In this document: in pieces, positions 4,039-64,000 of the stretch | How the letters are laid out: each line of letters begins with the position of its first letter | Numbering within the stretch: position 1 is the stretch's first letter | From: Eledone cirrhosa | Lineage: Eukaryota | DNA length: 64,000 nucleotides | NCBI GenBank assembly: GCA_964016885.1 | Contig: OZ024741.1 | Coordinates: 110,856,001 to 110,920,000 of the forward strand | Direction: 5' to 3' | Notes under the pieces: model-generated | The model's input: only the letters and a program-made list of their open reading frames with translations | What the model was told of the DNA's origin: nothing | Database searches by the model: none | Made by a program: the position numbers and the translations under genes

Positions 4039-7000
4039 GTAATTACAAAAGAAAAGAATGAGCCCTCGATATGTAAACAGTTAATTTATAATACTTAAAA
4101 TACATCACATCCAAGCATATGATTTTGTCAGTACTCAGAGTATCCTGATGGTATCTGATTAATTGTAGCAGATTAATCTCAAGTGCACCATCAATCGCCT
4201 GCCTTTATGAAAAATTCTTTTTCATAAAAGGTATCTGGAAGGATGCTCTTCCTGACACTAACCCTTTTAGTCACTTCTGACATGCAGTGATAGTGTACCT
4301 ATTGTAAACTAGATACATAGGTGTGTTAATGTTATCAATGAAACCCACTCCCTAGCTTCGATTGTCTACATGATGCTGTATTTTTCAGAAGATGGTACAA
4401 AGTCAAAGAGTTGGAAAGAAAAAATTCGTTTCAAAAACAAAGGAAGTAACCAAGCCCCAGTCCCTGAAGAAGCAACTGGTTCTTTTGGGGTTCATCTTGA
4501 AGTCTGTATGCCTTCACCTTATAAGGAAGTGAGTAGCCTTCACAACCACCACCCCCACATCATTATTACCACTTCCACAACACCACCTTTACAACATCAT
4601 CTTTTCAACACTACCTTCACAACACCACTTTCATAACGTATAATCTTTACAACACACCATCTTCAAAAACACACCTTCACAATAAGCCACCTTCACAAGC
4701 ACAACTCCTTCACATTATCTTCACAACACCACTGCCACAAACACTACTTCACAAAAAAAACTTTCACATATACTACCTTCACAACACCACCTTCTCACCA
4801 TGTCATCTTCACAACACCACTGCGACAAACACTACTCCCACAACACCACCTTCTCAGCATGTCATCTTCACAACACCACTGCCACAAACACTACTCCCAC
4901 AACACCACCTTCACAACATAATACACTTTTATTTTTTACTCCAAAAGTTATTTTCGCTCATTTGTTTATTCAAGATGAGCTTGATGTAAATTAATTAATC
5001 AAAATGTAAGCATTATTGATTATATTTTTTGTTAATGAAATATACATTGAAAAAATGTTTGATCTCTGCAAATTCTTTGGGTATTCTTTTAATATATATA
5101 TACAGATACACACATACACACACACAATATATATATGTATTTATTCATTTATTTCCTCTATATCCAGTCTGTGCCATTCATAGTTGATCTGTGCACCAGT
5201 ATCGTAGAGACCCGAGGACTGAAGGTTGTTGGTGTTTACAGAATTCCTGGCAATAAGTTAGTCATTTCTAATATGCAGGAGGAACTTAACAAGGTACGTA
5301 CTATCTACTATAACACATACATACACACACATCCATACATATTTAAGAATAGGTGTACTATATACCTGCATGTCATAAGAGGCAACTAAAAGGTGTAAAA
5401 AAAAAAGGACTTCTAGCTGAAAACATTACTTCAAAGACCCTTCAGAGGAATCCCATTTTGGCCACTTGTATTTGCAATCATTCTTTCAATCCTTACCCAA
5501 GATTCATGACCATAGGTAAAAGTAGGCACAAACACCAAATTGAAGATAGCTTTTACAGCCACCTCCTTTCTTGTATCAAAATTAGAAATCATTATTGTTG
5601 TTGTTATGCAAATATTATTGTTGTTGATAGCCTCTGTTGGTTGGTATATAGGGGCCTCAACAGATCCTTATTTCACTGCTATATATTGATAGGCAACCCC
5701 TGCTATATAGGGGCCTCAACAGATACTTATTTCACTGCTACATATTGATAGTCCCTATTGGGGCCTGAACAGATGCTTATTTCACTGCTATATATTGATA
5801 GCCCCTATTGGGGCCTCAACAAATACTTATTTCACTGCTATATATTGATAGGCAACCCTTGCTATGTAGGGGCCTGAACAGATACTTATTTCACTGCTAT
5901 ATATTGATAGTCCCTATTGGGGCCTGAACAGATGCTTATTTCACTGCTATATATTGATAGCCCCTATTAGGGCCTGAACAGATACTTATTTCACTGCTAT
6001 ATATTGATAGCTTCTATTGGTTGCTTTATAGAGGCCTCAACAAATCCTTGTTTCACTGCTATGTTGTCTTCTTTTCTCCAGGGTCTCGACTACATCAACC
6101 AAGAAAATGAGAAATGGCAAGATGTGAATGTAATCAGTAGTTTGTTAAAGTCTTTCTTCCAGAAACTTCCGGAGCCATTAGTTACCAATGGTCAGTATAC
6201 ATTGCTTTCTCTTTCTCTCTCTCTATCTATCATTGTCTCCCTCTCTCTCCCTACCTCACACACACACACATATATATAAAACATTGTCTCAAAATAGTCT
6301 GTTCAACCCATGCCAGCATGGAAAAGTGGACATAAAAATGATGTCATATGTATGTTTGTGTGTATGTGTGTAAGTATGCATCCATGTGTGTTTGCTGCAC
6401 CACTATATACATATATTTGTACAGATTGCTATCTCTCTCTCCCTCTCTATCTTATATCATGTATTTGTTGTGCCCCACTATACCTCTACCTCCACAATGC
6501 AATGCACACCAGTACAATCCCATTGTAATGTACACAACTATATCACAACCCACCACCACTACTACTACACCAACACTACCACCACAATATAATGTAAACC
6601 ACCATAACTACGCTACCACCACAATGTAATGTAAACCACCATAACTACACCACCACCACCACAATATAATGTAAACCACCATAACTACACCACTACCACC
6701 ACAATATAATGTAAACCACCATAACTACACCACTACCACCACAATATAATGTAAACCACCATAACTACACCACTACCACCACAATGTAATGTAAACTGCC
6801 ATAACTACACCACTACCACAATGTAATGTAAACCACCATAACTACACCACCACCACCACCACAATATAATGTAAACCACCATAACTACACCACTACCACC
6901 ACAATATAATGTAAACCACCATAACTACACCACTACCACCACAATATAATGTAAACCACCATAACTACACCACTACCACCACAATGTAATGTAAACTGCC

Positions 7001-10000
7001 ATAACTACACCACTACCACAATGTAATGTAAACCACCATAACTACACCACCACCACCACCACAATATAATGTAAACCACCATAACTACACCACTACCACC
7101 ACAATATAATGTAAACCACCATAACTACACCACTACCACCACAATGTAATGTAAACCACCATAACTACACCACTACCACCACAATATAATGTAAACCACC
7201 ATAACTACACCACCACCACCACAATGTAATGTAAACCACCATAACTACACCACCACCACCACCACAATATAATGTAAACCACCATAACTACACCACTACC
7301 ACCACAATATAATGTAAACCACCATAACTACACCACTACCACCACAATGTAATGTAAACCACCATAACTACACCACTACCACCACAATATAATGTAAACC
7401 ACCATAACTACACCACTACCACAATGTAATGTAAACCACCATAACTACACCACTACCACCACAATATAATGTAAACCACCATAACTACACCACCACCACC
7501 ACAATGTAATGTAAACCACCATAACTACACCACCACTACCACAATATAATGTAAACCACCATAACTACACAACTACTACCACAATATAATGTAAACCACC
7601 ATAACTACACCACTACCACAATGTAATGTAAACCACCATAACTACACCACCACTACCACCACAATATAATGTAAACCACTATAACTACACCACTACCACC
7701 ACAATATAATGTAAACCACCATAACTACACCACCACAACTACCACAATATAATGTAAACCACCATAACTACACCACCACCACAATATAATGTAAACCACC
7801 ATAACTACACTACCACCACAATATAATGTAAACCACCATAACTACACCACCACCACCACAATATAATGTAAACCACCATAACTACACCACCACAATATAA
7901 TGTAAACCACCATAACTACACCACCACCACAATATAATGTAAACCACCATAACTACACCACCACCACCACAATATAATGTAAACCACCATAACTACACCA
8001 CCACTACCACCACAATATAATGTAAACCACTATAACTACACCACTACCACCACAATATAATGTAAACCACTATAACTACACCACTACCACCACAATATAA
8101 TGTAAACCACCATAACTACACCACCACTACCACCACAATATAATGTAAACCACTATAACTACACCACTACCACCACAATATAATGTAAACCACCATAACT
8201 ACACCACTACCACCACAATATAATGTAAACCACCATAACTACACCACCACAACTACCACAATATAATGTAAACCACCATAACTACACCACCACCACCACC
8301 ACAATATAATGTAAACCACCATAACTACACTACCACCACAATATAATGTAAACCACCATAACTACACTACCGCCACAATATAATGTAAACCACCATAACT
8401 ACACCACCACCACCACAATATAATGTAAACCACCATAACTACACCACCACCACCACAATATAATGTAAACCACCATAACTACACCACCACCACCACCACC
8501 ACAATATAATGTAAACCACTATAACTACACCACTACCACCACAATATAATGTAAACCACCATAACTACACCACCACAACTACCACAATATAATGTAAACC
8601 ACCATAACTACACCACCACCACAATATAATGTAAACCACCATAACTACACTACCACCACAATATAATGTAAACCACCATAACTACACTACCACCACAATA
8701 TAATGTAAACCACCATAACTACACCACCACCACCACAATATAATGTAAACCACCATAACTACACCACCACCACCACAATATAATGTAAACCACCAAAACT
8801 ACACCACCACAACTACCACAATATAATGTAAACCACCATAACTACACCACCACCACCACCACCACCACAATATAATGTAAACCACCATAACTACACTACC
8901 ACCACAATATAATGTAAACCACCATAACTACACTACCACCACAATATAATGTAAACCACCATAACTACACCACCACCACCACAATATAATGTAAACCACC
9001 ATAACTACACCACCACCACCACAATATAATGTAAACCACCATAACTACACCACCACCACCACAATATAATGTAAACCACCATAACTACACCACCACCACC
9101 ACAATATAATGTAAACCACCATAACTACACCACTACCGCCACAATATAATGTAAACCACCATAACTACACTACCACCACCACAATATAATGTAAACCACC
9201 ATAACTACACCACCACCACCACAATATAATATAAACCACCATAACTGCACCACCACCACCACAATATAATGTAAACCACCATAACTACACCACTACCACC
9301 ACAATATAATATAAACCACCATAACTGCACCACCACCACCACAATATAATGTAAACCACCATAACTACACCACTACCGCCACAATATAATGTAAACCACC
9401 ATAACTACACTACCACCACCACAATATAATGTAAACCACCATAACTACACCACCACCACCACCACAATATAATATAAACCACCATAACTGCACCACCACC
9501 ACCACAATATAATGTAAACCACCATAACTATACCACTACCACCACAATATAATATAAACCACCATAACTGCACCACCACCACCACAATATAATGTAAACC
9601 ACCATAACTACACCACTACCGCCACAATATAATGTAAACCACCATAACTACACCACCACTACCACAATATAATGTAAACCACCGCAATATAATGTAAACC
9701 ACCATAACTACACCACCACTACAATATAATATAAACCACCATAACTACACCACCACTACCACAATATAATGTAAACCACCATAACTACACCAATACCACC
9801 ACAATATAATGTAAACCACCATAACTACACCACTACCACCACAATATAATGTAAACCACCATAACTACACCACCACTACCACAATATAATGTTAACCACC
9901 ATAACTACACCACCACCACCACAATATAATGTAAACCACCATAACTACACCACCACAATATAATGTAAACCACCATAACTACACCACCACTACCACAATA

Positions 10001-13000
10001 TAATGTAAACCACCATAACTACACCACCACCACCACAATATAATGTAAACCACCATAACTACTCCACCACAATATAATGTAAACCACCATAACTACACCA
10101 CCACTACCACAATATAATGTAAACCACCATAACTACACCACTACCACAATATAATGTAAACCACCATAACTACACCATCACCACAATATAATGTAAACCA
10201 CCATAACTACACCACCACTACCACAATATAATGTAAACCACCATAACTACACCACTACCACAATATAATGTAAACCACCATAACTACACCACCACCACAA
10301 TATAATGTAAACCACCATAACTACACCACTACCACCACAATATAATATAAACCACCATAACTGCACCACCACTACCACAATATAATGTAAACCACCATAA
10401 CTACACCACTACCACCACAATATAATGTAAACCACCATAACTACACCACCACTACCACAATGTTATGTAAACCACCATAACTACACCACCACAATATAAT
10501 GTAAACCACCATAACTACACCACCACCACCACAATATAATGTAAACCACCATAACTACACCACCACTACCACAATATAATGTAAACCACCATAACTACAC
10601 CACCACTACCACAATATAATGTAAACCACCATAACTACACTACCACCACAATATAATGTAAACCACCATAACTACACCACCACTACCACAATGTAATGTA
10701 AACCACCATAACTACACCACCACCACAATATAATGTAAACCACCATAACTACACTACCACCACAATATAATGTAAACCACCATAACTACACCACCACCAC
10801 CACAATATAATGTAAACCACCATAACTACACCACCACCACCACAATATAATGTAAACCACCATAACTACACCACCACCACCACAATATAATGTAAACCAC
10901 CATAACTACACCACCACCACCACAATATAATGTAAACCACCATAACTACACCACCACTACCACAATATAATGTAAACCACCATAACTACACTACCACCAC
11001 CACAATATAATGTAAACCACCATAACTACACTACCACCACAATATAATGTAAACCACCATAACTACACTACCACCACAATATAATGTAAACCACCATAAC
11101 TACACCACCACTACCACCACAATATAATATAAACCACCATAACTACACCACTAGCACCACAATATAATGTAAACCACCATAACTACACCACTACCACTAT
11201 AATGTAAACCACCATAACTACACCACCACTACCACAATATAATGTAAACAACCATAACTACACCACTACCACCACAATATAATGTAAACCACCATAACTA
11301 CACCACCACCACCACAATATAATGTAAACCACCATAACTACACCACAGCTACCACAATATAATGTAAACCACCACCACCACAATATAATGTAAACCACCA
11401 TAACTACACCACCACTACCACAATATAATGTAAACCACCATAACTACACCACCACTACCACAATATAATGTAAACCACCATAACTACACCACCACCACCA
11501 CAATATAATGTAAACCACCATAACTACACCACTACCACCACAATATAATATAAACCACCATAACTACACCACCACTACCACAATATAATGTAAACCACCA
11601 TAACTATACCACCACCATAATATAATGTAAACCACCATAACTACACCACCTCCACAATATAATGTAAACCACCATAACTACACCACCACCACAATATAAT
11701 GTAAACCACCATAACTACACCAACACCACCACAATATGATGTAAACCACCATAACTACACCACTACCACAATATAATGTAAACCACCATAACTACACCAC
11801 TACCACAATATAATGTAAACCACCATAACTACACCAACACCACCACAATATGATGTAAACCACCATAACTACACCACTACCACCATAACTACACCACCAC
11901 TACCACAATATAATGTAAACCACCATAACTACACCACCACCACAATATAATGTAAACCACCATAACTACACCACCACCACCACCACAATATAATGTAAAC
12001 CACCATAACTACACCACCACCACCACCACAATATAATGTAAACCACCATAACTACACCACCACCACAATATAATGTAAACCACCATAACTACACCACTAC
12101 CACCACAATATAATGTAAACCACCATAACTACACTACCACCACAATATAATGTAAACCACCATAACTACACCACCACCACCACAATATAATGTAAACCAC
12201 CATAACTACACTACCACCACAATATAATGTAAACCACCATAACTACACTACCACCACAATATAATGTAAACCACCATAACTACACCACCACTACCACCAC
12301 AATATAATGTAAACCACCATAACTACACCACTACCACCACAATATAATGTAAACCACCATAACTACACCACCGCTACCACCACAATATAATGTAAACCAC
12401 CATAACTACACCACCACCACCACAATATAATGTAAACCACCATAACTACACCACTACCACCACAATATAATGTAAACCACCATAACTACACCACTACCAC
12501 TATAATGTAAACCACCATAACTACACCACCACTACCACAATATAATGTAAACAACCATAACTACACCACTACCACCACAATATAATGTAAACCACCATAA
12601 CTACACCACTACCACCACAATATAATGTAAACCACCATAACTACACTACCACCACAATATAATGTAAACCACCATAACTACACTACCACCACAATATAAT
12701 GTAAACCACCATAACTACACCACTACCACCACAATATAATGTAAACCACCATAACTACACTACCACCACAATATAATGTAAACCACCATAACTACACCAC
12801 CACCACAATATAATGTAAACCACCATAACTACACCACTACCACCACAATATAATGTAAACCACCATAACTACACCACCACCACAATATAATGTAAACCAC
12901 CATAACTACACCACCACCACAATATAATGTAAACCACCATAACTACACCACCACCACAATATAATGTAAACCACCATAACTACACCACCACTACCACAAT

Positions 13001-16000
13001 ATAATATAAACCACCATAACTACACCACTACCACAATATAATGTAAACCACCATAACTACACCACTACCACCACAATATAATGTAAACCACCATAACTAC
13101 ACTACCACTACCACAATATAATGTAAACCACCATAACTACACTACCACCACAATATAATGTAAACCACCATAACTACACCACTACCACCATAACTACACC
13201 ACCACTACCACAATATAATGTAAACCACCATAACTACACCACCACCACAATATAATGTAAACCACCATAACTACACCACCACTACCACAATATAATGTAA
13301 ACCACCATAACTACACCACCACTACCACAATATAATGTAAACCACCATAACTACACCACCACCACAATGTAATGTAAACCACCATAACTACACCACTACC
13401 ACAATATGATGTAAACCATTACCACCACCACCACCCCCATCATCTAATGAACACCACTGTTTATTACAGAGTTATACCAGAGCTTCATCAATGCTAACCA
13501 AATAGAAAATCTACAAAAGAGAATGTTAACATTGAAAAGAATCATACATCAGTTACCTGATGTCCACTTTGAGACATTTCGGCATTTGGCACTTCACCTG
13601 CGTAAGGTCGCTGACCACAGCCATCTGAACAAGGTATGGCCTGTCCTCTTGATGTGACTGTATGTATGTATAGTGTTTTGTTCATGTGACTGTCTGTATG
13701 TATAGTGTGTTGTGGTGTGACTGTATATATAGTGTGTTGTTGGTGTGACTGTATGTATAGTGTGTTGTTGGTGTGGCTGTATGTATAGTGTGTTGTGGTG
13801 TGACTGTATGTATAGTGTGATGTTGGTATGACTGTATGTATAGTGTGTTGTTGGTGTGACTGTATGTATAGTGTGTTGTTGGTGTGACTGTATGTATAGT
13901 GTGTTGTTGGTGTGACTGTATGTATAGTGTGTTGTTGGTGTGACTGTATGTATAGTGTGTTGTGGTGTGACTGTATGTATAGTGTGTTGTGGTGTGACTG
14001 TATGTATAGTGTGTTGTTGGTGTGACTGTATGTATAGTGTGTTGTTGGTGTGACTGTATGTATAGTGTGTTGTGGTGTGACTGTATGTATAGTGTTGTTG
14101 GTGTGACTGTATGTATAGTGTGTTGTTGGTGTGACTGTATGTATAGTGTGTTGTTGGTGTGACTGTATGTATAGTGTGTTGTTGGTGTGACTGTATGTAT
14201 AGTGTGTTGTTGGTGTGACTGTATGTATAGTGTGTTGTTGGTGTGACTGTATGTATAGTGTGTTGTTGGTGTGACTGTATGTATAGTGTGTTGTGGTGTG
14301 ACTGTATGTATAGTGTGTTGTTGGTGTGACTGTATGTATAGTGTGTTGTTGGTGTGACTGTATGTATAGTGTGTTGTTGGTGTGACTGTATGTATAGTGT
14401 GATGTTGGTGTGACTGTATGTATAGTGTTGTGGTGTGACTGTATGTATAGTGTGTTGTTGGTGTGACTGTATGTATAGTGTGTTGTTGGTGTGACTATGT
14501 ATAGTGTGTTGTTGGTGTGACTGTATGTATAGTGTGTTGTTGGTGTGACTATGTATAGTGTGTTGTTGGTGTGACTGTATGTATAGTGTGTTGTTGGTGT
14601 GACTGTATGTATAATGTGTTGTTGGTGTGACTGTATGTATAGTGTGTTGTTGGTGTGACTGTATGTATAGTGTGTTGTTGGTGTGACTGTATGTATAGTG
14701 TGTTGTTGGTGTGACTGTATGTATAGTGTGTTGTTGGTGTGACTGTATGTATAGTGTGTTGTGGTGTGACTGTATGTATAGTGTGATGTTGGTGTGACTG
14801 TATGTATAGTGTGTTGTTGGTGTGACTATGTATAGTGTGTTGTTGGTGTGACTGTATGTATAGTGTGTTGTGGTGTGACTGTATGTATAGTGTGTTGTTG
14901 GTGTGACTGTATGTATAGTGTGTTGTTGGTGTGACTGTATGTATAGTGTGTTGTTGGTGTGACTATGTATAGTGTGTTGTGGTGTGACTATGTATAGTGT
15001 GTTGTGGTGTGACTGTATGTATAGTGTGATGTTGGTGTGACTGTATGTGTAGTGTGTTGTGGTGTGACTATGTATAGTGTGTTGTTGGTGTGACAGTATG
15101 TATAGTGTGTTGTGGTGTGCCTGTATGTATAGTGTGTTGTTGGTGTTACTGTATGTATGGTGTGACTATGTATAGTGTGTTGTTGGTGTGACTGTATGTA
15201 TAGTGTGTTGTGGTGTGACTGTATGTATAGTGTGTTGTTGGTGTGACTGTATGTATAGTGTGTTGTTGGTGTGACTGTATGTATAGTGTGTTGTGGTTTG
15301 ACTGTATGTATAGTGTGTTGTGGTTTGACTGTATGTATAGTGTGTTGTTGGTGTGACTATGTATAGTGTGTTGTTGGTGTGACGATGTATAGTGTGTTGT
15401 GGTGTGACTGTATGTATAGTGTGTTGTTGCTGTGACTATGTATAGTGTGTTGTTGGTGTGACTATATGTATAGTGTGTTGTGGTGTGACTATATGTATAG
15501 TGTGTTGTGGTGTGACTATATGTATAGTGTGTTGTGGTGTGACTGTATGTATAGTGTGTTGTTGGTGTGACTGTATGTATAGTGTGTTGTTGGTGTGACT
15601 GTATGTATAGTGTGTTGTTGGTGTGACTGTATGTATAGTGCATTGTTGGTGTGACTGTATGTATAGTGTGATGTTGGTGTGACTATGTATAGTGTGTTGT
15701 TGGTGTGACTGAATGTATAGTGTTGTTGTTGTGACTGTATGTATAGTGTTGTTGTTGTGACTGTATGTATAGTGTGTTGTTGGTGTGACTGTATGTATAG
15801 TGTGTTGTGGTGTGACTGTATGTATAGTGTGTTGTGGTGTGACTGTATGTATAGTGTGATGTTGGTGTGACTGTATGTATAGTGTTGTGGTGTGACTGTA
15901 TGTATAGTGTGTTGTTGGTGTGACTGTATGTATAGTGTGTTGTTGATGTGACTGTATGTATAGTGTGTTGTGGTGTGACTATGTATAGTGTGTTGTTGGT

Positions 16001-45787: not shown

Positions 45788-45991
45788 CCCTTTAGCTTTT
45801 AAACCAGCTGCATGCGGCCAGAATTCTCTTGCCTCTTTCTGTTCAAACCAGCCATAACTGGCTGCTTATTCCAACGTTAAGGTATTGTTCTCAAAATAAA
45901 TAATATCATATTATGCGAGATAATTATGTGAGGTAAAACCTTTACCATGAAAATACAATAGTAAATATAGAGTAATGTAAATGCTAAAGGG
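45788..45991. mobile_element. piggyBac-type MITE, copy 3
   Basis: TTAA|CCCTTTAGCTTTTA...TAAATGCTAAAGGG|TTAA. Confidence 0.85.
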
Positions 45992-46935
45992 TTAAAGGAA
46001 AAGTCAATCATCAGATTGGACCATAGAAAAAGTGTTTCCATTGGATTTTTCCTTGCTGATACTATCTACTGCTGGTTGCAAATTCTGACAGATAGAGCAA
46101 CATAAAATATCTTGTTCTAGAAAGGAAATATTATCATAGAGATTATTTTTCTTAAAGAATTATCAATTGGTATGATTCCCCCAAAATTCTCATTTGTACT
46201 TTAGAAACCAGAATTTCTTGTTGATTTGTTGTTTAATCAATCAATATTTTAAATGTACCAACACTATATTAATTCTAAAGGGGAATAATTCCTTTCCTTT
46301 TTGTGAGAGAAGAATGAACACCCAATAGTATGTGTATATATTATGTTTATAACAGAGTACTTGAAGTTGTTAGACAGTGATAACAATTAAAAAGAGAAGA
46401 ATGGATACCTAATAGCATATGTGTATTATGTTTATGATAAAATACTAGAAATTGTTATACTAAAGGGTTAAAGGAAAAGTCAATCATCAGATTGGACCAT
46501 AGAAAAAGTGTTTCCATTGGATTTTTCCTTGCTGATACTATCTACTGCTGGTTGCAAATTCTGACAGATAGAGCAACATAAAATATCTTGTTCTAGAAAG
46601 GAAATATTATCATAGAGATTATTTTTCTTAAAGAATTATCAATTGGTATGATTCCCCCAAAATTCTCATTTGTACTTTAGAAACCAGAATTTCTTGTTGA
46701 TTTGTTGTTTAATCAATCAATATTTTAAATGTACCAACACTATATTAATTCTAAAGGGGAATAATTCCTTTCCTTTTTGTGAGAGAAGAATGAACACCCA
46801 ATAGTATGTGTATATATTATGTTTATAACAGAGTACTTGAAGTTGTTAGACAGTGATAACAATTAAAAAGAGAAGAATGGATACCTAATAGCATATGTGT
46901 ATTATGTTTATGATAAAATACTAGAAATTGTTATA
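45984..46935. repeat. 476-bp direct tandem duplication
   Basis: 45984-46459 and 46460-46935 read identical by eye. Confidence 0.93.
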
Positions 46936-47430
46936 CAGTGATAATAACAATTGAAAGAGAAATGTTTATATTTAGTGAAGAATGGAAGTGTATATTATGT
47001 TACAGTGATAATAATTGTTTCTACTTTTTGGCCAGAGAATTGTTTATATTTAGTGAAGAATGGATACCCAATAGTGTGTATATATTATGTTTATAACAAA
47101 GTAGGAAAGAGAGAAATGTTTATTTTTTAGAGAAGAATGGATACTCAATATCATCATCATTTTCATGGGCGTTTTAAGGTTCGCTTTCCCTGCTGGCAAG
47201 GGTTGGACTAAGTGTGGGTATATTATGTTTATAACAAAGTACTTGAAATTGTTATACAGTGAGAATAACAATCAAATGTAGGAAATGTTTGTACTTAGAG
47301 AAGAATGGAGACCAAATAGTGTGTGTATATTATGTTTTAATAGAGTACTTGACATTGTTATACAGTGATAACAATTAAAAATAGAAGAATGGTTACCCAA
47401 TAGCATGTGTATTATGTTTATAACAGTACT
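46300..47430. repeat. Degenerate tandem repeat (GAGAAGAATGGATACCCAATAG...ATTATGTTTATAACA...GTTATACAGTGATAACAAT)
   Basis: Motif recurs about 8 times with variable spacing. Confidence 0.7.
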
Positions 47431-54559: not shown

Positions 54560-54591
<32 letters not shown>

Positions 54592-54595
<4 letters not shown>

Positions 54596-54815
54596 GTGAA
54601 AGAGTGAAGAATAACATGGTCGGCTGTACAAAAAGGGGTTTTATGTACAGTATTAACAATTGTTTCATTGATCAGGTGAGTCTAAAGGCCGCAAATCACT
54701 CGAAATTGCGCCACTCGACCTTAAATACAGTATGGGTCACTTGATCAAATCATCGGAATACTGGAGCGGGTAACACATGGCATTGGTTTTTATAGATACA
54801 TCGGAGAATCAAGGT
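54592..54815 (-). repeat. ~200-bp repeat carrying the hammerhead motif (inverted partner of 59550-59748)
   Basis: Reverse complement aligns with 59550-59748 over the full length. Confidence 0.9.
54648..54763 (-). ncRNA. Second copy of the CCGAUGA hammerhead-like motif
   Basis: Reverse complement has identical stems and core; longer stem II loop. Confidence 0.65.
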
Positions 54816-55170: not shown

Positions 55171-58100
55171 TATCATCATCATCATCGTTTAACATCCATC
55201 TTCCACGCTAGCATGGGTTTAGATGGGAATTGTCCCACGGGAGGCAAGATTGGTCGTCTTGCTCGTATAGGACTGTTTGGCGGGTTTTCTACGGCTGGAT
55301 GCCCTTCCTAACACCAACCACGTTTACAGTGTGGAGTAGGAGGTTTTTACCGTGTTACCTACACGGCCACATTACAGCGTGGACTGTGTGTTTTTTTGTC
55401 GTGGCACCTACACGACCAAATTACAGCGTGGACTGTGTGTTTTTTTTTTGTCGTGACACCTACACGACCTCATTTATTTAGGACTGGATGTTGTGGTACC
55501 AACATAATTATACAGCGAAAGGGGTGGTGTAGATGGGGATGGGGGTGTATTTTTGGTTAGGAGGTGCCTACTGACTGTAGGTTTCGCTTTGTACTTAGGC
55601 AAGGCGGGTCTTCTGTATTACTGCGCAGTGCCAAAGATCTCGGTCCAGTGACATTGTCTTGGAGAGGTGTAAGTGTGTAAGGTCGGAATTTATCAAATCG
55701 TCCCAGGTTTTTCTGGGTTTGCTTACTCCGTAGCTTCCATCAGTTTTGATCGCCCTGCACTTTTTTATACAGCTGTCATCTTTCATGCGCATCACGTGAC
55801 CATACCAATGTAGTCTTCTTTCGAGTAAACAGCATCTGATCCCTCTTATTCCTAATTTCTCACTTAGTTCATTTATGCTTTGCCATTCACATATATTACT
55901 ATTACACATCCAACGGAGCATGCAAGCTTCGTTCCTCTCCAATCTGCGCAGATCCTCTGCACACAATGCTCATGTCTCATTGCCATGTAACATTGCTGTT
56001 CGTATGCAGGCATCATACAGTCTGCCTTTCATTTTTAGAGAGAAAACTTTAGCGGCCAATAGTGGTATAAGCTTTCTGAACTTTTTCCATCCCGTTCTGA
56101 CTCTGGCTACTGTACTTTCAGAGCACCCTCCACCATTTTATCACCCAGGTAACGGAAGGTATCCCCTATTTCTATAGAAACATCTGGGCAATGGAAGGAG
56201 CTAGTATCCTGTGGGCACTTGCTACTACTTATTGCACCTGAGAACCGGACACATTTAAAATCTATGTTCTTAGTTAGCTTACCTGTGATCCCACTACATC
56301 TTTTATGCACGCATACTTTGCATTTGGGACATAAAATGGAGTTTCTGCCTACTCCTTTCCTACACACTGAGCATGGCCATTTCCCAGAGGGGACCAGTGC
56401 CCTATTTTCCTTCCTACATACTAAAACTTTAGTCTTAGACAAGTTAATTTTAAGGCCCTTTGATTCTAGGCCATGCTTCCAAGTTTGGAATTTCTTCTCT
56501 GATTCAGCTATGAGCGTTAGATCATCTGCGTATAGAAGTTCCCATGGGCAGCCGGTCTTGAACTCCTCTGTTATAGCCTGAAGGGCAATAATAAATAGGA
56601 GGGGGCTAAGGACAGAGCCCTGATGAACACCAACTTTTAAGCTAAATTTTTCACTATATTCGTTGTTAATTCTAACCTTGCTGACTGTTACTTTATACAC
56701 GGCTTGTAAAGCTCTCACGAGCCATTCATCAACACCTAGTTTTCTAAGAGCCCACCAGATAATGGAGCGGGGGACTCTGTCAAAAGCTTTCTCCAAGTCT
56801 ACAAAAGCTAAGTATAGGGGTTTACTTTTAGCTAGGTACTTCTCCTGTAGTTGTCGTACAATGAAAAGAGCGTCCGTGGTACTTTTACCAATTTGCTCTC
56901 TGATTAGTTGCGCTATAACTTTTTCTGTGACCTTCATGACCTGGTCAATTAATTTAATGCCTCTATAGTTTCCCCTATCTCGGGCATCTCCTTTACCCTT
57001 GTAGCAGTTAATGATGATGATGCTACGCCAGTCATTTGGTATGACCCCATTCTGTATGACTTGGTTTACTATCCAGGTGACCATAGTGTGTCCCACCAAT
57101 CCAGATGCTTTCAGCATTTCAGCAACTATCTCTGAAGGCCCAGCTGCTTTGCCTGTCTTCATATCTTTGATTGCCTTACTTATTATACTACCTTCAACTT
57201 GCACTGCTGGTCCCTCTATTGGATCGATTTGGGGCAGACTATCTTTTTCCCACTTATTCTCCTCATTTAGTAGCCTCTCGTAGTGACACTTCCAAGCTAC
57301 CTTCTTATCAGCGTCAGTGATGGCAAGTACACCATCATCATTATGGACACACTTCTCCCCGATAATATCACGGTTTTCATTGACACATTGTCTAGCAATC
57401 CTGAACACCTCACGTTTTGGGTCCTCGCGTTGTAGAACATGCTTGAACTTTCTTTCCTCTGCTTCTTTTCTTGCAAGGTACACTTGTCTCCTAGCTTCCC
57501 TCCTGGCCACTTGATAGTGTCCTCTACTTCCCCCATCACGCCATACTTCCCAAGCCTGCTTTTTGGCCTTGATTGACTCCCCCACCTTACTATTCCACCA
57601 CCTTGTTACTCTCCTCCTGCCTATAGGTCTGCTCCAGCCACAGATTTCATCTGTCGCCTTCAGCAGGTTAACTTTCAGGAATTCCCACTGTTCCTCTATA
57701 CTGTACGCCTCTAATTGGTCTTCCTTACTGTCAAAAGCATCAAGTAATATGCTTTTAAATTTGTTACTGGTTGTGGCGTCCTTTAACTTCCATATTCTTC
57801 TTCTCAGGGTAGTCCTCCTCTGTTGTCGAGTATGTATCGTCCTGACTATGAGGTCACTAACTATGAGGCTGTGTTGGGAGGTGCATTCTTCACGGGGGAG
57901 GGATTTAGTGTTTACAACAGACACTTTGTCACGTCTTCTGGTAAGGATATAATCTATCTGACTGGCGTGTTCCTCTGATCTATAGGTGATCAAGTGATTG
58001 TCTCATTTTTTGAAGTTTGTGTTACAGATAGTTAGGTTATTTGCGTCACAGAATTCCAGGATTCTGAAGCCTTCCTCATTTCTGGTACCAAACCCGTAGC

Positions 58101-58780
58101 CTCCATATATTCCCTCATAGCCGTCACAATGTTGTCCAACATGACCATTTAGGTCGCCAGCAATAATTATGTAGTCACTGTCGGTTAGTTGGGAGGTAGT
58201 GAGTATTAGTGACTCATAGAATCTGTCTTTTATAACGCCAAGCAGTCCAGATTGGGGTGCGTAAGCGGATATTATTGTTACAGTAGTTCTATTTAGGACA
58301 AGTCTTATTTTGATTATTCTGTCGTTCACTCTATTATGCTAACATAATTCCTACTCCACCCAGCCCATTTTCATTTCCCACCCAGAAAAGTTTATAGCAT
58401 CGTTTTTTACCCACAATGAATCTACCTAGTCTTTTGGATGCAACAAGCATCAACTTCCTTACGTTCAAGCATCTCTACAACCTCGTTAGAGTGACATTTT
58501 AAAGTGCCTACATTCATGGTACCAACTCTGAAGTTTTGGATTTCGTTTGGTGGGTGGAAGGGATGGGTTGGAGGTGTAGGGAGGAGTGAGGGAGATGGGG
58601 TTATGTTTGCCATCTACGTCTGAAATAAAGAGGAATCCTTGCATTTTCGTCCGGCCACATGAGGTGAATTTATCTTTATCTTTGACATTGTCATTTGAGT
58701 GTCCAGATTCTTTGACTCTCCAGAATTCCACAGTCCATCTAGCATATCAAAGGCAACCAGGTTTAAACTTAGGGAGTGAA
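55171..58780 (-). mobile_element. Near full-length, inactivated RTE-clade LINE (APE endonuclease + RT + Cys-rich finger)
   Basis: EN motifs GTMNVGTL, SAYAPQ, GDLNGHVG, SQIDYIL; RT motifs DLEKAFDRVP, QGSVLSP, LYADDL; C-x2-C...C-x2-C...H-x2-C finger; ORF broken into 58422-58613, 58003-58329, 56107-57993, 55595-55966; QFGF motif deleted; (TGA)n tail at 55172-55186; 5' end approximate. Confidence 0.93.
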
Positions 58781-59239: not shown

Positions 59240-59530
59240 CCGCCGAGGTTGACTTTGCCTTTCATCCTTACGAGGTCGATAAAATAAAGTACCAGTAATG
59301 TACTGGGTATTTGCTGGCCTTGTGCCAAAAGTAGAAACAATTATAACTTCAACCACCACCACTACTACTATTATCAGTAACCGTATTTTGTACTTATTTT
59401 TTACATCTTTATCATTTTCATTTTTACTTATTTATACTTTTATTATTGTTTATTATCTTTTCGATAAAATAAAGTACCAGTGAGGCACTGGGTAGTTGCT
59501 GGCCTTGTGCCTAAAGTAGAAACAATTATT
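59240..59530 (+). mobile_element. Two headless family-4 SINE fragments in tandem
   Basis: CCGCCGAGGTTGACTTTGCCTTTCATCC...GGCCTTGTGCC..AAGTAGAAACAATTAT at 59240-59345; 3' half repeated at 59460-59530. Confidence 0.7.
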
Positions 59531-59549: not shown

Positions 59550-59748
59550 ACTTGATTCTCTGATGTATCTATAAATACCAATGCCATGTGTTACACCCTC
59601 CAGTATTCCGATGATTTGATCAAGTGACACACTGTATTTAAGGTCGAGTGATTAGCGGGCTTTAGACTCACCTGATCAATGAAACAATTGTTAATACTGT
59701 AAATAAAACCCCTTTTTGTACAGCGGACCATGTTATTCTTCACTACTA
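59550..59748 (+). repeat. ~200-bp repeat carrying the hammerhead motif
   Basis: Inverted copy of 54592-54815. Confidence 0.9.
59601..59699 (+). ncRNA. Type I hammerhead-like ribozyme, CCGAUGA core variant with extended stem II
   Basis: CAGUAUU CCGAUGA U-UUGAUCA-A-GUGA-(40 nt)-UCAC-C-UGAUCAA-U GAAA C-AAUU-G UU AAUACUG: stem I 7 bp perfect, stem II 7+4 bp. Confidence 0.65.
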
Positions 59749-59902: not shown

Positions 59903-59960
<58 letters not shown>

Positions 59961-59964
<4 letters not shown>

Positions 59965-61495
59965 GTAAAGCCTTTGACAGAGTTCCACGTGCTGTAATCT
60001 GGTGGGCTCTTAGAAAACTAGGAGTAGATGAATGGCTTGTGAAAGCTGTACAAGCCATGTATAGGGGAGCAGTCAGCAAAGTTAGGATTAGCAATGAGTA
60101 TAGCGAGGAATTTAGCGTACAGGTTGGGGTCCACCAGGGCTCTGTTCTTAGCCCTCTCCTGTTCATCATAGTCCTGCAGGCAATAACGGAGGAGTTTAAG
60201 ACCGGATGCCCATGGGAACTCCTGTATGCTGATGACCTCGCACTTATAGCTGAATCTATGGTAGAACTAGAGAAAAAATTCCAAACTTGGAAGCAGGGAC
60301 TAGAAAGAAAGGGTCTCAAAGTCAACCTGACAAAGACTAAGGTCCTTGTAAGTAGACGAGAAAACAGAACCCAGATCCCCTCAGGGAAATGGCCTTGCTC
60401 AGTATGTAGGAAAGGTGTAGGTAGGAACTCCATTCTCTGTCCCAAATGCAAACAATGGGTACACAAGAGATGTAGCGGGATCTCAGGAAGCTTAATTAAG
60501 AATGTAGGCTTCACATGCAGCAGCTGTGCTGGGACAGCAAGCAGCAAACGACCACAGGAAACAAGTACCACCAATCTCTGGGAGGGCTCTGTAGAAACAG
60601 TAGACAGCTTCTGCTACCTAGGTGACCGAATTAGCAGCGGAGGTGGGTGTTCAGAAAGTACAATAACTAGGGTAAGAACGGGATGGAAGAAGTTCAGGGA
60701 ACTACTGCCACTGCTAGCTGCAAAAGGCTTCTCCCTCAAAATGAAAGGCAGGCTGTATGATGCGTGTATCCGAACAGCAATGTTACATGGTAGTGAGACC
60801 TGGGCGCTGAAGGTGGAAGACTTACGTAGATTAGAAAGAAACGAAGCCTGCATGCTCCGATGGATGTGTAATAGTAATATACGCGAACGACAAAGCATAA
60901 ATGAATTAAGAGAGAGACTGAGCATAAGAGGAATCAAATGCTGTGTGCAGGAGAGGCGGTTGCGTTGGTATGGACATGTGATGCGTATGAAGGATGACAG
61001 CTGCATAAAAAGGTGCAGAGCTCTAGAAGTAAATGGAAACCGCGGAGTGGGGAGACCCAAGAAGACCTGGGATGAGGTGATAAAAGCCGACCTTACCCAA
61101 TTACACCTCTCAAAGGCAATGACACACGACCGTGACCTCTGGCGTCACGCAGTAATACAGTGTACCCGACCTCCCATGGGTACAAGCTGAAGCATATAGA
61201 CAATATGCCCCCACACCCTCCCACTGCAAGGTGGTCGTGGAGGTGCCACGGCAAAAAAGCACCCAACCCACACTGTAAAGTGGACGTGTAGGCGCCACGG
61301 AAAAAGCACCCAGGACTCACTATAAATGAGGTTGGTGTTAGGAAGGGCATCCAGCTGTAGAAATCAAGCCAAAATCAGTTCCTGTATGAGCAAGGCATGG
61401 TCAGCCGACCAGACACTGCCCACAAGAGGACAACCCGTCTAACCCATGCTAACATGGAAGAACGGACGTAAAACGGTGATGATGATGATGATGAT
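59961..61495 (+). mobile_element. 5'-truncated young RTE-clade LINE inserted in a (TA)n tract
   Basis: Starts at KAFDRVP, uninterrupted frame to stop at 61190 (LYADDL, Cys finger, RRLRWYGHV, GRPKKTW); 3' UTR; (TGA)n tail; (TA)n on both flanks. Confidence 0.95.
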
Positions 61496-61610: not shown

Positions 61611-62085
61611 CATGTTTAAGAATAAACGGGCTGTGTAGTTGCTAGATAAGGTGTACTTATAAAAAGCGGAAAGTAGAGCGGGAGAAAATTTTCCTTCATC
61701 AGTTGTTTTCTGGGGGTCTTGGACATTTCAACGCATTAAAGACAATATGTCTCACCCCAGGGCGTCAATAACTCAAGGAAGTTATTGAGGGAAAAGGGGA
61801 AAGAGAGAATAAAAGAAATTGTAACAGAAAGGAAGATGGAAGAAAAAGGAAAAAAAAAACAGCGGAAAAAAAACGGGAAGCAACAGACCGAGGAGGGAAA
61901 CCCGAAGTACATGTGTGTGAGCTACTGGAAGAGAGAGAGAAAAATTAAAATCAACATCAATTACTGAAAATAAGTTCGAGATTGCTGTGGACGACAAAAA
62001 AAAAAACACGTCTGACCTCCGCAAGAGTAAGTGAGAAAGAGACAACTAGAGGAGCAGGCGAGAGAAACAGTGTGTGTGTGTGTGT

Positions 62086-62221
62086 CAAATGAAAAAAACC
62101 AAGATAAAGACTCACGTTAATCCCCTGTAATTTTATGAGCTCAAGGAACATTTTCCGGGCTCTTCATAATACAGTATAAAGAGAAGAAAACAGAAAAGGG
62201 GGTATGTTTTCAGTTACAAGA
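62086..62221. repeat. ~135-bp direct repeat, copy 1 (copy 2 at 63228-63360); probable Penelope pseudo-LTR/3' UTR sequence
   Basis: CAAATGAAAAAA...TTTTATGAGCTCAAGGAA...CCGGGCTCTTCATAATACAGTATAAAGAGAAGAAAAC...GGGGTATGTTTTCAGTTA in both. Confidence 0.85.
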
Positions 62222-62709
62222 GGTATAGAACCACTATAGTGAAGAATATACGATCTACGAAAAGTGGGGAAACTACATAATAATCAAAAGATAAAATTAA
62301 AATGTAAAAAAACTCATTTTTCTAACTATAGAACACCTTCATATTCTCGAAAAAGAGAATGTTTCGCTATACCGTGTTGGTATGTAGCGAAATCTGTCCA
62401 CACCTTGACCCCTGGGTAACATTTAACGGTCAAATTCTGGGTTACCTCCTTTCTGGCGTAAACAAGTCTATGCATGGGCGATCTCTTGAGGTCACCCCGG
62501 TGGTTCTCGAGGCAGAAGAAGCAACATATATTAATAGCCTGTCTTAGACCAAGCAAAAGGCAGTTCGAAGCATTCCTAACAGAGTAACGATGTAAAACGT
62601 TTGCTTTCTACAGACTATTACTCTCTCTTCTGGTCTTACAGACTCTCACCTTCTCTTGTCACTGAGCTTTGAATACTACCTTGCTGCTACGACTAACGAA
62701 CAATATCTT

Positions 62710-62810
62710 GCCGAGGTTAACTTTGCCTTTCATCCTTACGGGGTCGATAAAATAAAGTACCAATAATGCACTGGGATAATTGCTGGCCTTGTGCCAAAAA
62801 TAGAAACAAA
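62710..62810 (+). mobile_element. Headless family-4 SINE fragment
   Basis: Close match to 59243-59342. Confidence 0.7.
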
Positions 62811-63227
62811 TATCTTGCCACTCTCTATTTCAGCATAACGAAATAACAGCCAAAACATTGTCAACCTGTATGATTTGTAGTAATCTTATTCTTTGTTCCT
62901 TTATTCACTGAAGTGAAGTAAAGTTTATATTTAAACGAAACTATTTATTTTGTCGTGTTATTGGAGCTCTAACAACATTTGTTAACTTCGCTTCGCTTCA
63001 GGAACACTACCCTCTCATGGCTTATTACCAGGCGCAGAGAAGGTATAGCCAACAAATCTAAAGAGATTTCAGACAATTGAATAACAGCACATGGTGAGAG
63101 AAAATGAAAATATGTGCTCTAGACAGTATATAGTGGGTTGAGTGGATTAAGAAACCGCTAGAAATGGTAGCCTATAACCACTCAACATAGAAAGCTCAAC
63201 CAACGAAGCATTTAGGAGAACAAATAT

Positions 63228-63360
63228 CAAATGAAAAAACAGAGATAAAGACTTGCGTTAATCTTCTGTAATTTTATGAGCTCAAGGAAAATTTCCGGGC
63301 TCTTCATAATACAGTATAAAGAGAAGAAAACTCAAAAAGGGGTATGTTTTCAGTTAGAAG
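63228..63360. repeat. ~135-bp direct repeat, copy 2, adjacent to the Penelope hammerhead
   Basis: See 62086-62221. Confidence 0.85.
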
Positions 63361-63382
63361 TGGTTACACAACAGTTAGTTCA

Positions 63383-63432
63383 CCATACCGAGAACAATTG
63401 TTTCACCTTAGCGGATCCTCAGCTCGTAATGG
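63383..63432 (-). ncRNA. Type I minimal hammerhead ribozyme in the Penelope 3' region
   Basis: Minus strand CCAUUA-CGAG CUGAGGA U-CC-GCUAA-GG-U GAAA C-AAUU-G UU CUCG-GUAUGG: full core, stem I 4 bp + 2x2 loop + 4 bp, palindromic stem III. Confidence 0.72.
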
Positions 63433-63594
63433 ACATGGTTATACGGAACAGGAAGGACAACCGTACGAACGCGCATGCGCAGAAACGATCACTTCACACA
63501 GGCAATACTAAATTGCGTGCGAGAGGTGTAAGGGGGATAACTGCGAAAGTCCGAAAGTTTCTAGTTGATAAGAAAATTAGGATGTTGTTGTAAT

Positions 63595-64000
63595 TCAATC
63601 CGGAGCCTTGTAGTTATGTAAGAGGTGTTTCCAGACGTGTGGACAACGTGTGAAGAATTCATTTCCCGTGTTTAGGCAATCACTATTGTGTAATCTCTTT
63701 AGAATATTTATTCGTTCATCAATACATAGTCCACACGACGCATTGCTCCTTGCGTATGGCTTGGACTTAGTGATGGCTTTCCATTGAATGGAGTAGTCTA
63801 TACTTGAATCCTTGAGGGACCATACGTGGCTCGCGAATTTCGTGGATGAACGTCTGTCCGGGTACCTAAAGGTCGACTGGTGATTCAGGAAGCGTTCCTT
63901 AAGTCGGCCCTCCGTCATACCCACATAGGATTTAACCTCCTGTGGTTGATTTGGTCGGTTGGAAGTGACCACAGCTTCATAAACTACAGCGGGTGTGTTG
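63595..64000 (-). mobile_element. Penelope-like element, GIY-YIG endonuclease C-terminus (continues beyond the window)
   Basis: Minus frame AVVYEAVV...SYVGMTEGRLKERFLNH...LASH-like FASHVW...CGLCIDE...LN..NE...CPH. Confidence 0.88.

What the first reader, a model, noticed from the sequence alone, without database searches (positions are those of the whole stretch)
63383..63432. Penelope-linked minimal hammerhead shares a three-part signature with the two stand-alone motifs
Seen: about 160 nt downstream of the GIY-YIG stop and on the same strand lies CGAG CUGAGGA UCCGCUAAGGU GAAAC AAUU GUU CUCG. It shares GAAACAAUUGUU exactly and the U-U pair at the base of stem II with the 54.7 kb and 59.6 kb motifs, although stems I and II differ entirely in sequence. 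Established: Penelope pseudo-LTRs carry minimal hammerheads. Inference: same fold with different stems is natural covariation, and ties the small repeats to a Penelope partner. The shared palindromic stem III could let RNAs of the two families form cleaving heterodimers.
Basis: partly seen in the sequence, partly recalled or inferred. Interest (0 to 1): 0.75.

Follow-up and report, generated by a model that had tools for sequence, protein, structure and literature searches.

The report
Hammerhead ribozyme in Hydra-type Penelope tail
This is mostly ordinary: the tail of a repeated jumping gene (a Penelope-like retrotransposon, likely of the Hydra clade) carries the predicted self-cutting hammerhead RNA known from such elements, and two nearby short repeats, likely leftovers of a related family, would not form a cutting pair with it because their first stems do not match.

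Summary
The motif is real: a type I hammerhead at 63389-63426 (-), its core 173 nt after a GIY-YIG stop. The endonuclease lacks CCHH and has CxxC/CxH, and its relatives carry RT: this matches Hydra-clade Penelope-like elements, whose hammerheads are published (Craig 2021). Sequencing runs show the tail is highly repeated, ends near 63365, and is identical in a contig under another organism label. The shared signature is weaker than claimed. U-U is a clade trait (14 of 26 published rows; 19 of 51 families found here), and 23 of 51 families share loop III and cut base with another family. Only the AAUU loop is distinctive (0 of 51). The heterodimer idea fails: a double hammerhead swaps stem I strands, and the two families form 0 bp at both junctions, against 4-7 bp in homodimers. 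The stand-alone copies are one ~200-nt family. A TATA box 38 nt before the core (as in 10 of 56 relatives) and one end at (TA)n suggest truncated tails, or retrozyme-like monomers, of a sister family. Their long stem II (66/83 nt) and U4C core are unusual. New member of a known kind.

The parts
63595..63999 (-). C-terminal GIY-YIG endonuclease of a Penelope-like element with Hydra-clade motifs; open to the window edge, RT lies outside
   Evidence: 3761 hits at E<=0.001; Hydra profile iE 4e-31, positions 580-706; no Cys between the two beta motifs; CxxC..E..N..CxH present
63365..63594 (-). 3' UTR / pseudo-LTR tail of the element; 3' end inferred near 63365
   Evidence: summed depth falls from ~390,000 in bin 63317-63393 to 374 in bin 63240-63316; X1 record 7 aligns to 63366 and then runs on unlike; flank homology with the 62.1 kb copy starts at 63364
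63383..63432 (-). Type I hammerhead: stem I 63426-63423/63392-63389 plus extension, core 63422-63416, stem II 63415-63405 (U-U plus 2 bp), helix III with AAUU loop 63399-63396; predicted cut between 63393 and 63392
59551..59744 (+). Stand-alone copy 1 of a ~200-nt repeat: TATAAA 59570-59575, hammerhead 59601-59699 (7-bp stem I, U4C core, 66-nt stem II)
54603..54813 (-). Stand-alone copy 2 of the same repeat: TATA 38 nt before the core, hammerhead 54763-54648 (83-nt stem II), followed after about 11 nt by (TA)n at ~54563-54591
   Evidence: 88% identity over 211 columns
62085..62224 (-). Second copy of the flank 63226-63365; lies outside the element and helps fix its 3' end
   Evidence: 90% over 140 nt; low depth over 63240-63316

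Best explanation
The motif is a hammerhead fold in the 3' tail of a highly repeated Penelope-like retrotransposon that likely belongs to the Hydra clade, and it would cut its own family's RNA, likely as a homodimer, not the RNA of the neighbouring repeats. Inferred mechanism: in a tandem or read-through transcript two copies pair through the 8-nt palindrome ACAAUUGU and exchange stem I strands, each core cutting the other copy after GUU. This would trim or release element RNA. The monomer is predicted to misfold, so protein help is likely, as reported for a lizard element. The 54.7 and 59.6 kb motifs are inferred to be 5'-truncated tails (promoter, hammerhead, short 3' end) of a sister family. 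That family shares stem III by descent but has its own stem I, so each family's dimers would be self-specific.
For: Shown: sequence and descriptor hit. EN with the Hydra-diagnostic pattern. Full-length relatives carry RT and Hydra motifs: RWK 39 of 40, DK[TS] 40 of 40, CxCx4-7C 40 of 40. In related loci 66 of 98 EN stops have a hammerhead within 600 nt (18 had no room, 14 had room but none), median 130 nt, window 173. Tail depth is 100-1000 times the flank and higher on the hammerhead than on the EN, as 5' truncation predicts (summed depth is not a copy number). A contig of run X4 (other organism label, other study) matches 63380-63474 with 0 differences. Predicted energies: homodimer -26.4 vs -25.0 kcal/mol for two free monomers; monomeric hammerhead -7.6 vs a -12.5 misfold. 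Stand-alone family: TATA at -38, in the bin where 10 of 56 related hammerheads have one against 0-3 in the other bins; one copy ends at (TA)n, the clade's reported target. Published: hammerheads in PLE pLTRs, dimer cleavage at low rate (PMC4209133), protein-assisted cleavage (PMC11167929).
Against: No cleavage or expression is shown. RT, linker and a 5' pLTR lie outside the window, so clade membership rests on the EN. This copy's 3' junction is not (TA)n, and it has no TATA in the 70 nt before its core. Stem II has only 2 bp. No parent ORF was found for the stand-alone family, and its stem II (66/83 nt) exceeds all 51 related families (10-25 nt), while U4C occurs in only 1 of 51. In the one PLE tested in vitro, ribozyme mutants did not impair insertion, and no RNA-seq reads ended at the cut site (PMC11167929), so the role of cleavage is open.
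Confidence: 0.8

Rival explanations
1. The stand-alone family is a non-autonomous, self-promoted retrozyme-like element that moves as a unit using Penelope proteins, possibly those of this very family, rather than a set of truncated tails of its own autonomous parent.
For: Two copies share nearly the same ~200-nt span with no ORF remnant beside them. Long hairpin stem II and U4C are outside the range of the related pLTR hammerheads. AAUU is in 0 of 51 related families and absent from the Craig supplement, yet shared here; random family pairs share loop and cut base in only 13 of 1275 cases. Retrozymes as PLE derivatives, with many monomers, are described (bioRxiv 10.64898/2026.07.22.740005).
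Against: No tandem arrangement: the copies are inverted and 4.9 kb apart. No homology to the element's tail outside core and stem III. Within one well-sampled host, families share loop III often (11 of 78 Hydra magnipapillata pairs, counted by hand), so sharing does not single out a partner.
Confidence: 0.3
2. One reading: RNAs of the two families form cleaving heterodimers through the shared palindrome.
For: The palindromic stretch can pair across families (duplex -8.8 kcal/mol).
Against: Each junction needs the 5' stem I strand of one RNA to pair with the 3' strand of the other: 0 contiguous bp at both junctions (2-3 scattered pairs of 8), against 4 and 7 in homodimers. The forced heterodimer is 10.6 kcal/mol above the two free monomers. 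The geometry follows from the standard hammerhead strand order.
Confidence: 0.03
3. The hammerhead is an inert passenger of an old element: copied with the tail, no longer cutting.
For: This copy differs from the majority of copies at 12 listed positions in 63535-63934. Predicted misfold. 8 of 9 Xenopus retrozyme dimers did not cleave. U4C lowers activity in vitro (PMC3088659), which bears on the stand-alone copies.
Against: None of the 40 listed difference rows falls in 63333-63534 (645 rows hidden), and the X4 contig is identical across the motif. The motif sits at the conserved place in 66 of 98 related EN tails.
Confidence: 0.25

Closest known systems
Hydra-clade C-terminal EN+ Penelope-like elements and their hammerheads (Craig et al. 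2021, PMC8557442; includes Hydra-1_Obim)
   Same: GIY-YIG without CCHH, with CxxC and CxH around E and N; type I hammerhead shortly after the stop and near the 3' end; U-U at the base of stem II.
   Different: A different family from any listed: Hydra-1_Obim has another hammerhead and, by eye, a related but distinct EN and 3' UTR. Loop III here is a perfect 4-nt palindrome, while the 26 published rows have 5-6 nt. Stem II is only 2 bp. No (TA)n at this copy's end.
PLE min-HHRs (Cervera and de la Pena 2014, PMC4209133)
   Same: In the pLTR, short stem I, palindromic 15.2-16.2 region, mostly single dispersed copies attributed to truncated PLEs, dimer-dependent.
   Different: Strict min-HHRs lack helix III and have a 7-8 bp helix II with G10.1-C11.1. 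This one belongs with their 'small palindromic helix III' variants.
Animal non-LTR retrozymes (PMC7229834; bioRxiv 10.64898/2026.07.22.740005)
   Same: For the stand-alone family: non-coding, ~200 nt, type I hammerhead, 2-bp helix III with tetraloop, U-U at the stem II base (as axolotl HHR_Amex2), proposed PLE origin.
   Different: No tandem units here, a very long stem II, a U4C core and an upstream TATA; circular RNA untested.

Membership tests
Type I hammerhead ribozyme | CUGANGA and GAAA core, three stems, NUH cut site | tested here: met
   the stand-alone copies carry U4C
Type I hammerhead ribozyme | Rfam model match | tested here: not met
   no hammerhead family up to E=5 in 54-64 kb
Type I hammerhead ribozyme | Self-cleavage | not testable with these tools
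   needs an assay
Strict min-HHR (Cervera 2014) | No helix III/loop 3; long helix II opening with G10.1-C11.1 | tested here: not met
   helix III of 2 bp plus AAUU; stem II is U-U plus 2 bp (definition)
Hydra-clade PLE | C-terminal GIY-YIG lacking CCHH | tested here: met
Hydra-clade PLE | CxxC and CxH flanking the conserved E and N | tested here: met
Hydra-clade PLE | RT with RWK and DKT motifs, CxCX5C linker | not testable with these tools
   beyond the window edge, no genome held; present in 39-40 of 40 full-length relatives
Hydra-clade PLE | Canonical hammerhead near the 3' end | tested here: met
Hydra-clade PLE | Insertion in (TA)n (reported for almost all families) | tested here: inconclusive
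   absent at the 63365 junction, present at the 54.7 kb copy; in related loci 18 of 66 tails have (TA)n within 200 nt, so it is not a per-copy rule
Hydra-clade PLE | RT phylogeny places it in the clade | not tested
   no RT sequence of this element available
Non-LTR retrozyme (stand-alone family) | Tandem units, each with a type I hammerhead | tested here: not met
   two inverted monomers 4.9 kb apart; the rest of the genome was not available
Non-LTR retrozyme (stand-alone family) | No coding capacity | tested here: met
   no Hydra-profile signal in or beside either copy
Non-LTR retrozyme (stand-alone family) | Circular RNA intermediate | not testable with these tools
   needs RNA data
Active double hammerhead between the two families | Cross-complementary stem I strands | tested here: not met
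   0 contiguous bp at both junctions

The most novel reading that the evidence does not exclude
The ~200-nt stand-alone repeat is an independent, non-autonomous 'promoter plus ribozyme' element: a TATA box fires at the first bases of hammerhead stem I, the ribozyme (U4C core, 66-83-nt hairpin stem II) cuts about 90-110 nt later, and a Hydra-clade Penelope protein copies it into (TA)n. The TATA about 38 nt before the core in a subset of Hydra tails would mean these elements start their RNA with the ribozyme. The shared AAUU palindrome could at most let the small RNA bind and block, not cleave, the element's RNA.
Probability: 0.2. Interest if true: 0.55.

Novelty: new member of a known kind. Interest (0 to 1): 0.25.

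Why it matters
As it stands it adds one more Hydra-type Penelope family with its expected hammerhead, and a probable sister family. Two points have some general use. First, stem I, not the palindrome, should set partner specificity in double hammerheads, which predicts that co-resident families with the same loop III do not cross-cleave. Second, a TATA sits at a fixed distance before the core in a subset of Hydra tails. The Drosophila Penelope promoter is described as TATA-less and internal (PMC2377424), and one search listed no paper combining TATA with pLTR and hammerhead. If the novel case held, it would give a compact invertebrate example for testing how retrozyme-like RNAs arise from and depend on Penelope elements.

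Tried and rejected
No whole genome is held, so the contig could not be extended and no genome-wide descriptor search was run. Rfam and Pfam (EN fragment) gave nothing relevant. Word-based protein searches with the EN found nothing; the full HMMER search did. Viral contigs hold no relative. A 24-nt pattern of the stand-alone family found 0 matches in metagenome contigs. No RNA holder listed; this says nothing on expression. I first took 62085-62224 for a truncated copy of the element, and rejected this because depth over 63240-63316 is at flank level. An ORF start or N-terminal remnant after any of the three hammerheads, or an EN remnant before the stand-alone copies: no signal (best iE 0.54). 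Homology between the stand-alone repeat and the element's tail outside core and stem III: none. The bacterial promoter scan is not applicable. Lunse et al. 2017 could not be read; I saw only its citation and a review's passages. Earlier scan notes by place, by sequence and by the long word list were empty. Heterodimer in print: one search listed one unrelated paper.

Full report
Observation. The shared 12-mer occurs exactly at 54655 (-), 59681 (+) and 63393 (-). A loose descriptor over the whole window gave 5 hits. The strict version gave only these 3, against 0.01 hits per window in 200 simulated windows of the same dinucleotide make-up. Rfam did not match them up to E=5. Much of the window (about 6.6-37.5 kb) is satellite DNA.

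The element. An open frame runs from the window edge to a stop at 63595. Pfam gave no family and two word-based searches gave nothing, but phmmer over 1.84 billion representatives gave 3761 hits at E<=0.001. The longest of the 27 hits I aligned carry an RT upstream. Craig et al. 2021 (PMC8557442; I read passages, section 11, and supplement parts 1, 2, 52 and 53) define the Hydra clade by a C-terminal GIY-YIG without CCHH, CxxC and CxH around the conserved E and N, a CxCX5C linker, RWK and DKT motifs, canonical hammerheads and insertion in (TA)n. The window's EN has no cysteine between the two beta motifs and has CxxC..E..N..CxH. Of 40 full-length relatives (40 of the 120 listed), 39 have RWK and 40 each have DK[TS], the Cys linker and CxxC..CxH. 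Their profile hits the window only here (iE 4e-31; the next hit is iE 0.99). RT and linker of this copy are outside the window and no genome is held, so membership rests on the EN. The supplement lists Hydra-1_Obim from Octopus bimaculoides; by eye its EN is related, but its 3' UTR and hammerhead differ. No call identifies the host; that the short interspersed repeats here look octopus-like is my recollection only.

Other copies. Four of the ten listed runs were laid on 61700-64000. In X1 the summed contig depth is 44,000-94,000 over the EN bins, 320,000-390,000 over 63317-63470, and 113-374 over 63009-63316. The tool warns that this is not a copy number, but the shape fits a highly repeated element with many 5'-truncated tails. 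One diverged contig aligns down to 63366 and then runs on unlike. The flank's second copy (62085-62224, 90% over 140 nt) begins to match at 63364, so the 3' end is near 63365, about 25 nt after stem I, and is not at (TA)n. A contig of X4 (other organism label and study) matches 63380-63474 with no difference. Of the 40 difference rows shown, 12 fall in 63535-63934 and none in 63333-63534; 645 rows were hidden, so this is suggestive only. In the RAD library X8, 1862 molecules end at 63399 against a depth of 2700 beside it, at the AATT. This looks like a restriction cut (enzyme identity recalled) and is biased towards copies that keep the site.

How special is the signature? The published table has 26 Hydra rows; counted by hand, 14 have U on both sides at the base of stem II, and none has AAUU. 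Hydra-1_cRog and Penelope-17_HM share the whole stem III string and cut base with different stems I and II. Among 13 distinct Hydra magnipapillata families, 11 of 78 pairs share loop III and 3 of 78 share loop and cut base. I also fetched 96 related loci (the best 80 of 481 metagenome hits and 16 from genome bins). Of these, 69 hold a hammerhead (90 hits, about 51 families by a rough clustering that mis-merged a few). U-U is in 19 of 51; 23 of 51 share loop and cut base with another family; 13 of 1275 pairs share loop and cut base and 3 share all three parts; a 4-nt loop is in 5 of 51 and AAUU in none. So U-U is a clade trait, also known from axolotl retrozymes (PMC7229834, passages), while the AAUU match is real but modest evidence: about 7% for two random 4-nt palindromes, about 4% with the cut base. 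It favours common ancestry of the two families. With core and stem III masked, the stand-alone repeat and the element's tail align no better than shuffles (391 of 500 score as high). Of 98 EN stops in the related loci, 66 have a hammerhead within 600 nt (median 130, range 46-515), 18 lack room and 14 have room but none; the window's 173 nt is ordinary.

Heterodimers. In a type I hammerhead the strand after the cut base pairs with the strand before the core. When stem III forms between two RNAs, the cut strand at each junction comes from the partner, so stem I is intermolecular too. This follows from the standard strand order; the double-hammerhead concept is in PMC4209133 (parts 1-2 read) and PMC6466107 (passages). 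Across families there are 0 contiguous pairs at both junctions, against 4 and 7 within families; the forced heterodimer lies 10.6 kcal/mol above the free monomers, the stand-alone homodimers 3.0 below. With the extended stem I, the element's homodimer is -26.4 against -25.0 for two free monomers, and its monomeric hammerhead is -7.6 against a -12.5 fold in which the core pairs with the 3' strand. These are nearest-neighbour estimates without tertiary contacts. The palindrome alone can pair across families (-8.8), so binding without cutting is not excluded. In related loci, families with the same loop cross-pair stem I over 4 or more bases in 12 of 46 ordered pairs, against 122 of 2504 for different loops; cross-family dimers may thus be possible between close families elsewhere, but not for this pair.

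The stand-alone family. The two copies are 88% identical over about 200 nt, inverted and 4.9 kb apart. Both have a 7-bp stem I, a U4C core and a stem II of 66 or 83 nt that differs mainly by a 15-nt indel. Both have a TATA 38 nt before the core; in 56 distinct related hammerheads the -42 to -37 bin holds a TATA in 10, the other 19 bins in 0-3. The element at 63.4 kb has none. The 54.7 kb copy ends about 11 nt before (TA)n. These features point to tails of a sister Hydra-type family, and Cervera 2014 already read dispersed single motifs as truncated PLEs. Against this, no parent ORF is visible, stem II exceeds all 51 families (10-25 nt), and U4C is in 1 of 51; U4C is reported to lower activity in vitro (PMC3088659, passage). 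A retrozyme-like monomer is the main rival; a 2026 preprint (10.64898/2026.07.22.740005, parts 1-3 of 5 read) argues that animal retrozymes derive from pLTRs, so a link between small hammerhead repeats and Penelope elements is in print.

Mechanism. Shown: the fold's sequence, its place, its repetition and its conservation in one other organism label. Inferred: cleavage as a homodimer in tandem transcripts, probably with protein help as for the Anolis element, where cleavage needed the protein and was dispensable for insertion in vitro (PMC11167929, parts 1-2 read). Its role in the life cycle is open in the literature and is not advanced by this copy.

Verdict. New member of a known kind; interest 0.25. 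A 2026 octopus repeat annotation lists Penelope-like families and has no mention of hammerheads (PMC13282606, term search), and one search for octopus with hammerhead ribozyme listed only the Craig paper as relevant. These particular families may be undescribed, but their kind is not.

Noticed in passing
window 13663-37516 and 6574-13418: A 28-bp satellite of about 870 copies and a 40-bp satellite of about 170 copies fill half the window.
   Followed up: no
window 55595-58613 (-) and 59960-61190 (+): Two copies of a LINE with RT and a PHD-like finger, 77-82% alike, in inverted orientation; each lies beside one stand-alone hammerhead copy.
   Followed up: partly
window 62710-62813, 59242-59344, 59461-59529: Fragments of a very high-copy short repeat; summed depth over 12 million in X1 at 62701-62777.
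   Followed up: no
window 63226-63365 and 62085-62224: A 140-nt low-copy duplication that by eye contains an imperfect hairpin; the Penelope-like element ends at the edge of one copy.
   Followed up: partly
L081-L096: Hydra-type retroelement sequence occurs in 16 contigs of bacterial genome bins, several titled as symbionts or host-associated; most likely animal DNA in the bins.
   Followed up: no
L085, L087, L092: Single contigs carry three or four different hammerheads within a few kb, like the clustering seen in the window.
   Followed up: no
L001-L096: Base of stem II and loop III length go together in related hammerheads: U-U with 5-nt loops (19 of 22 U-U cases), 6-nt loops mostly with G-C (17 of 23); may mark two sub-lineages.
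   Followed up: partly
window 45984-46936: A perfect 476-bp tandem duplication, recent or an assembly artefact.
   Followed up: no
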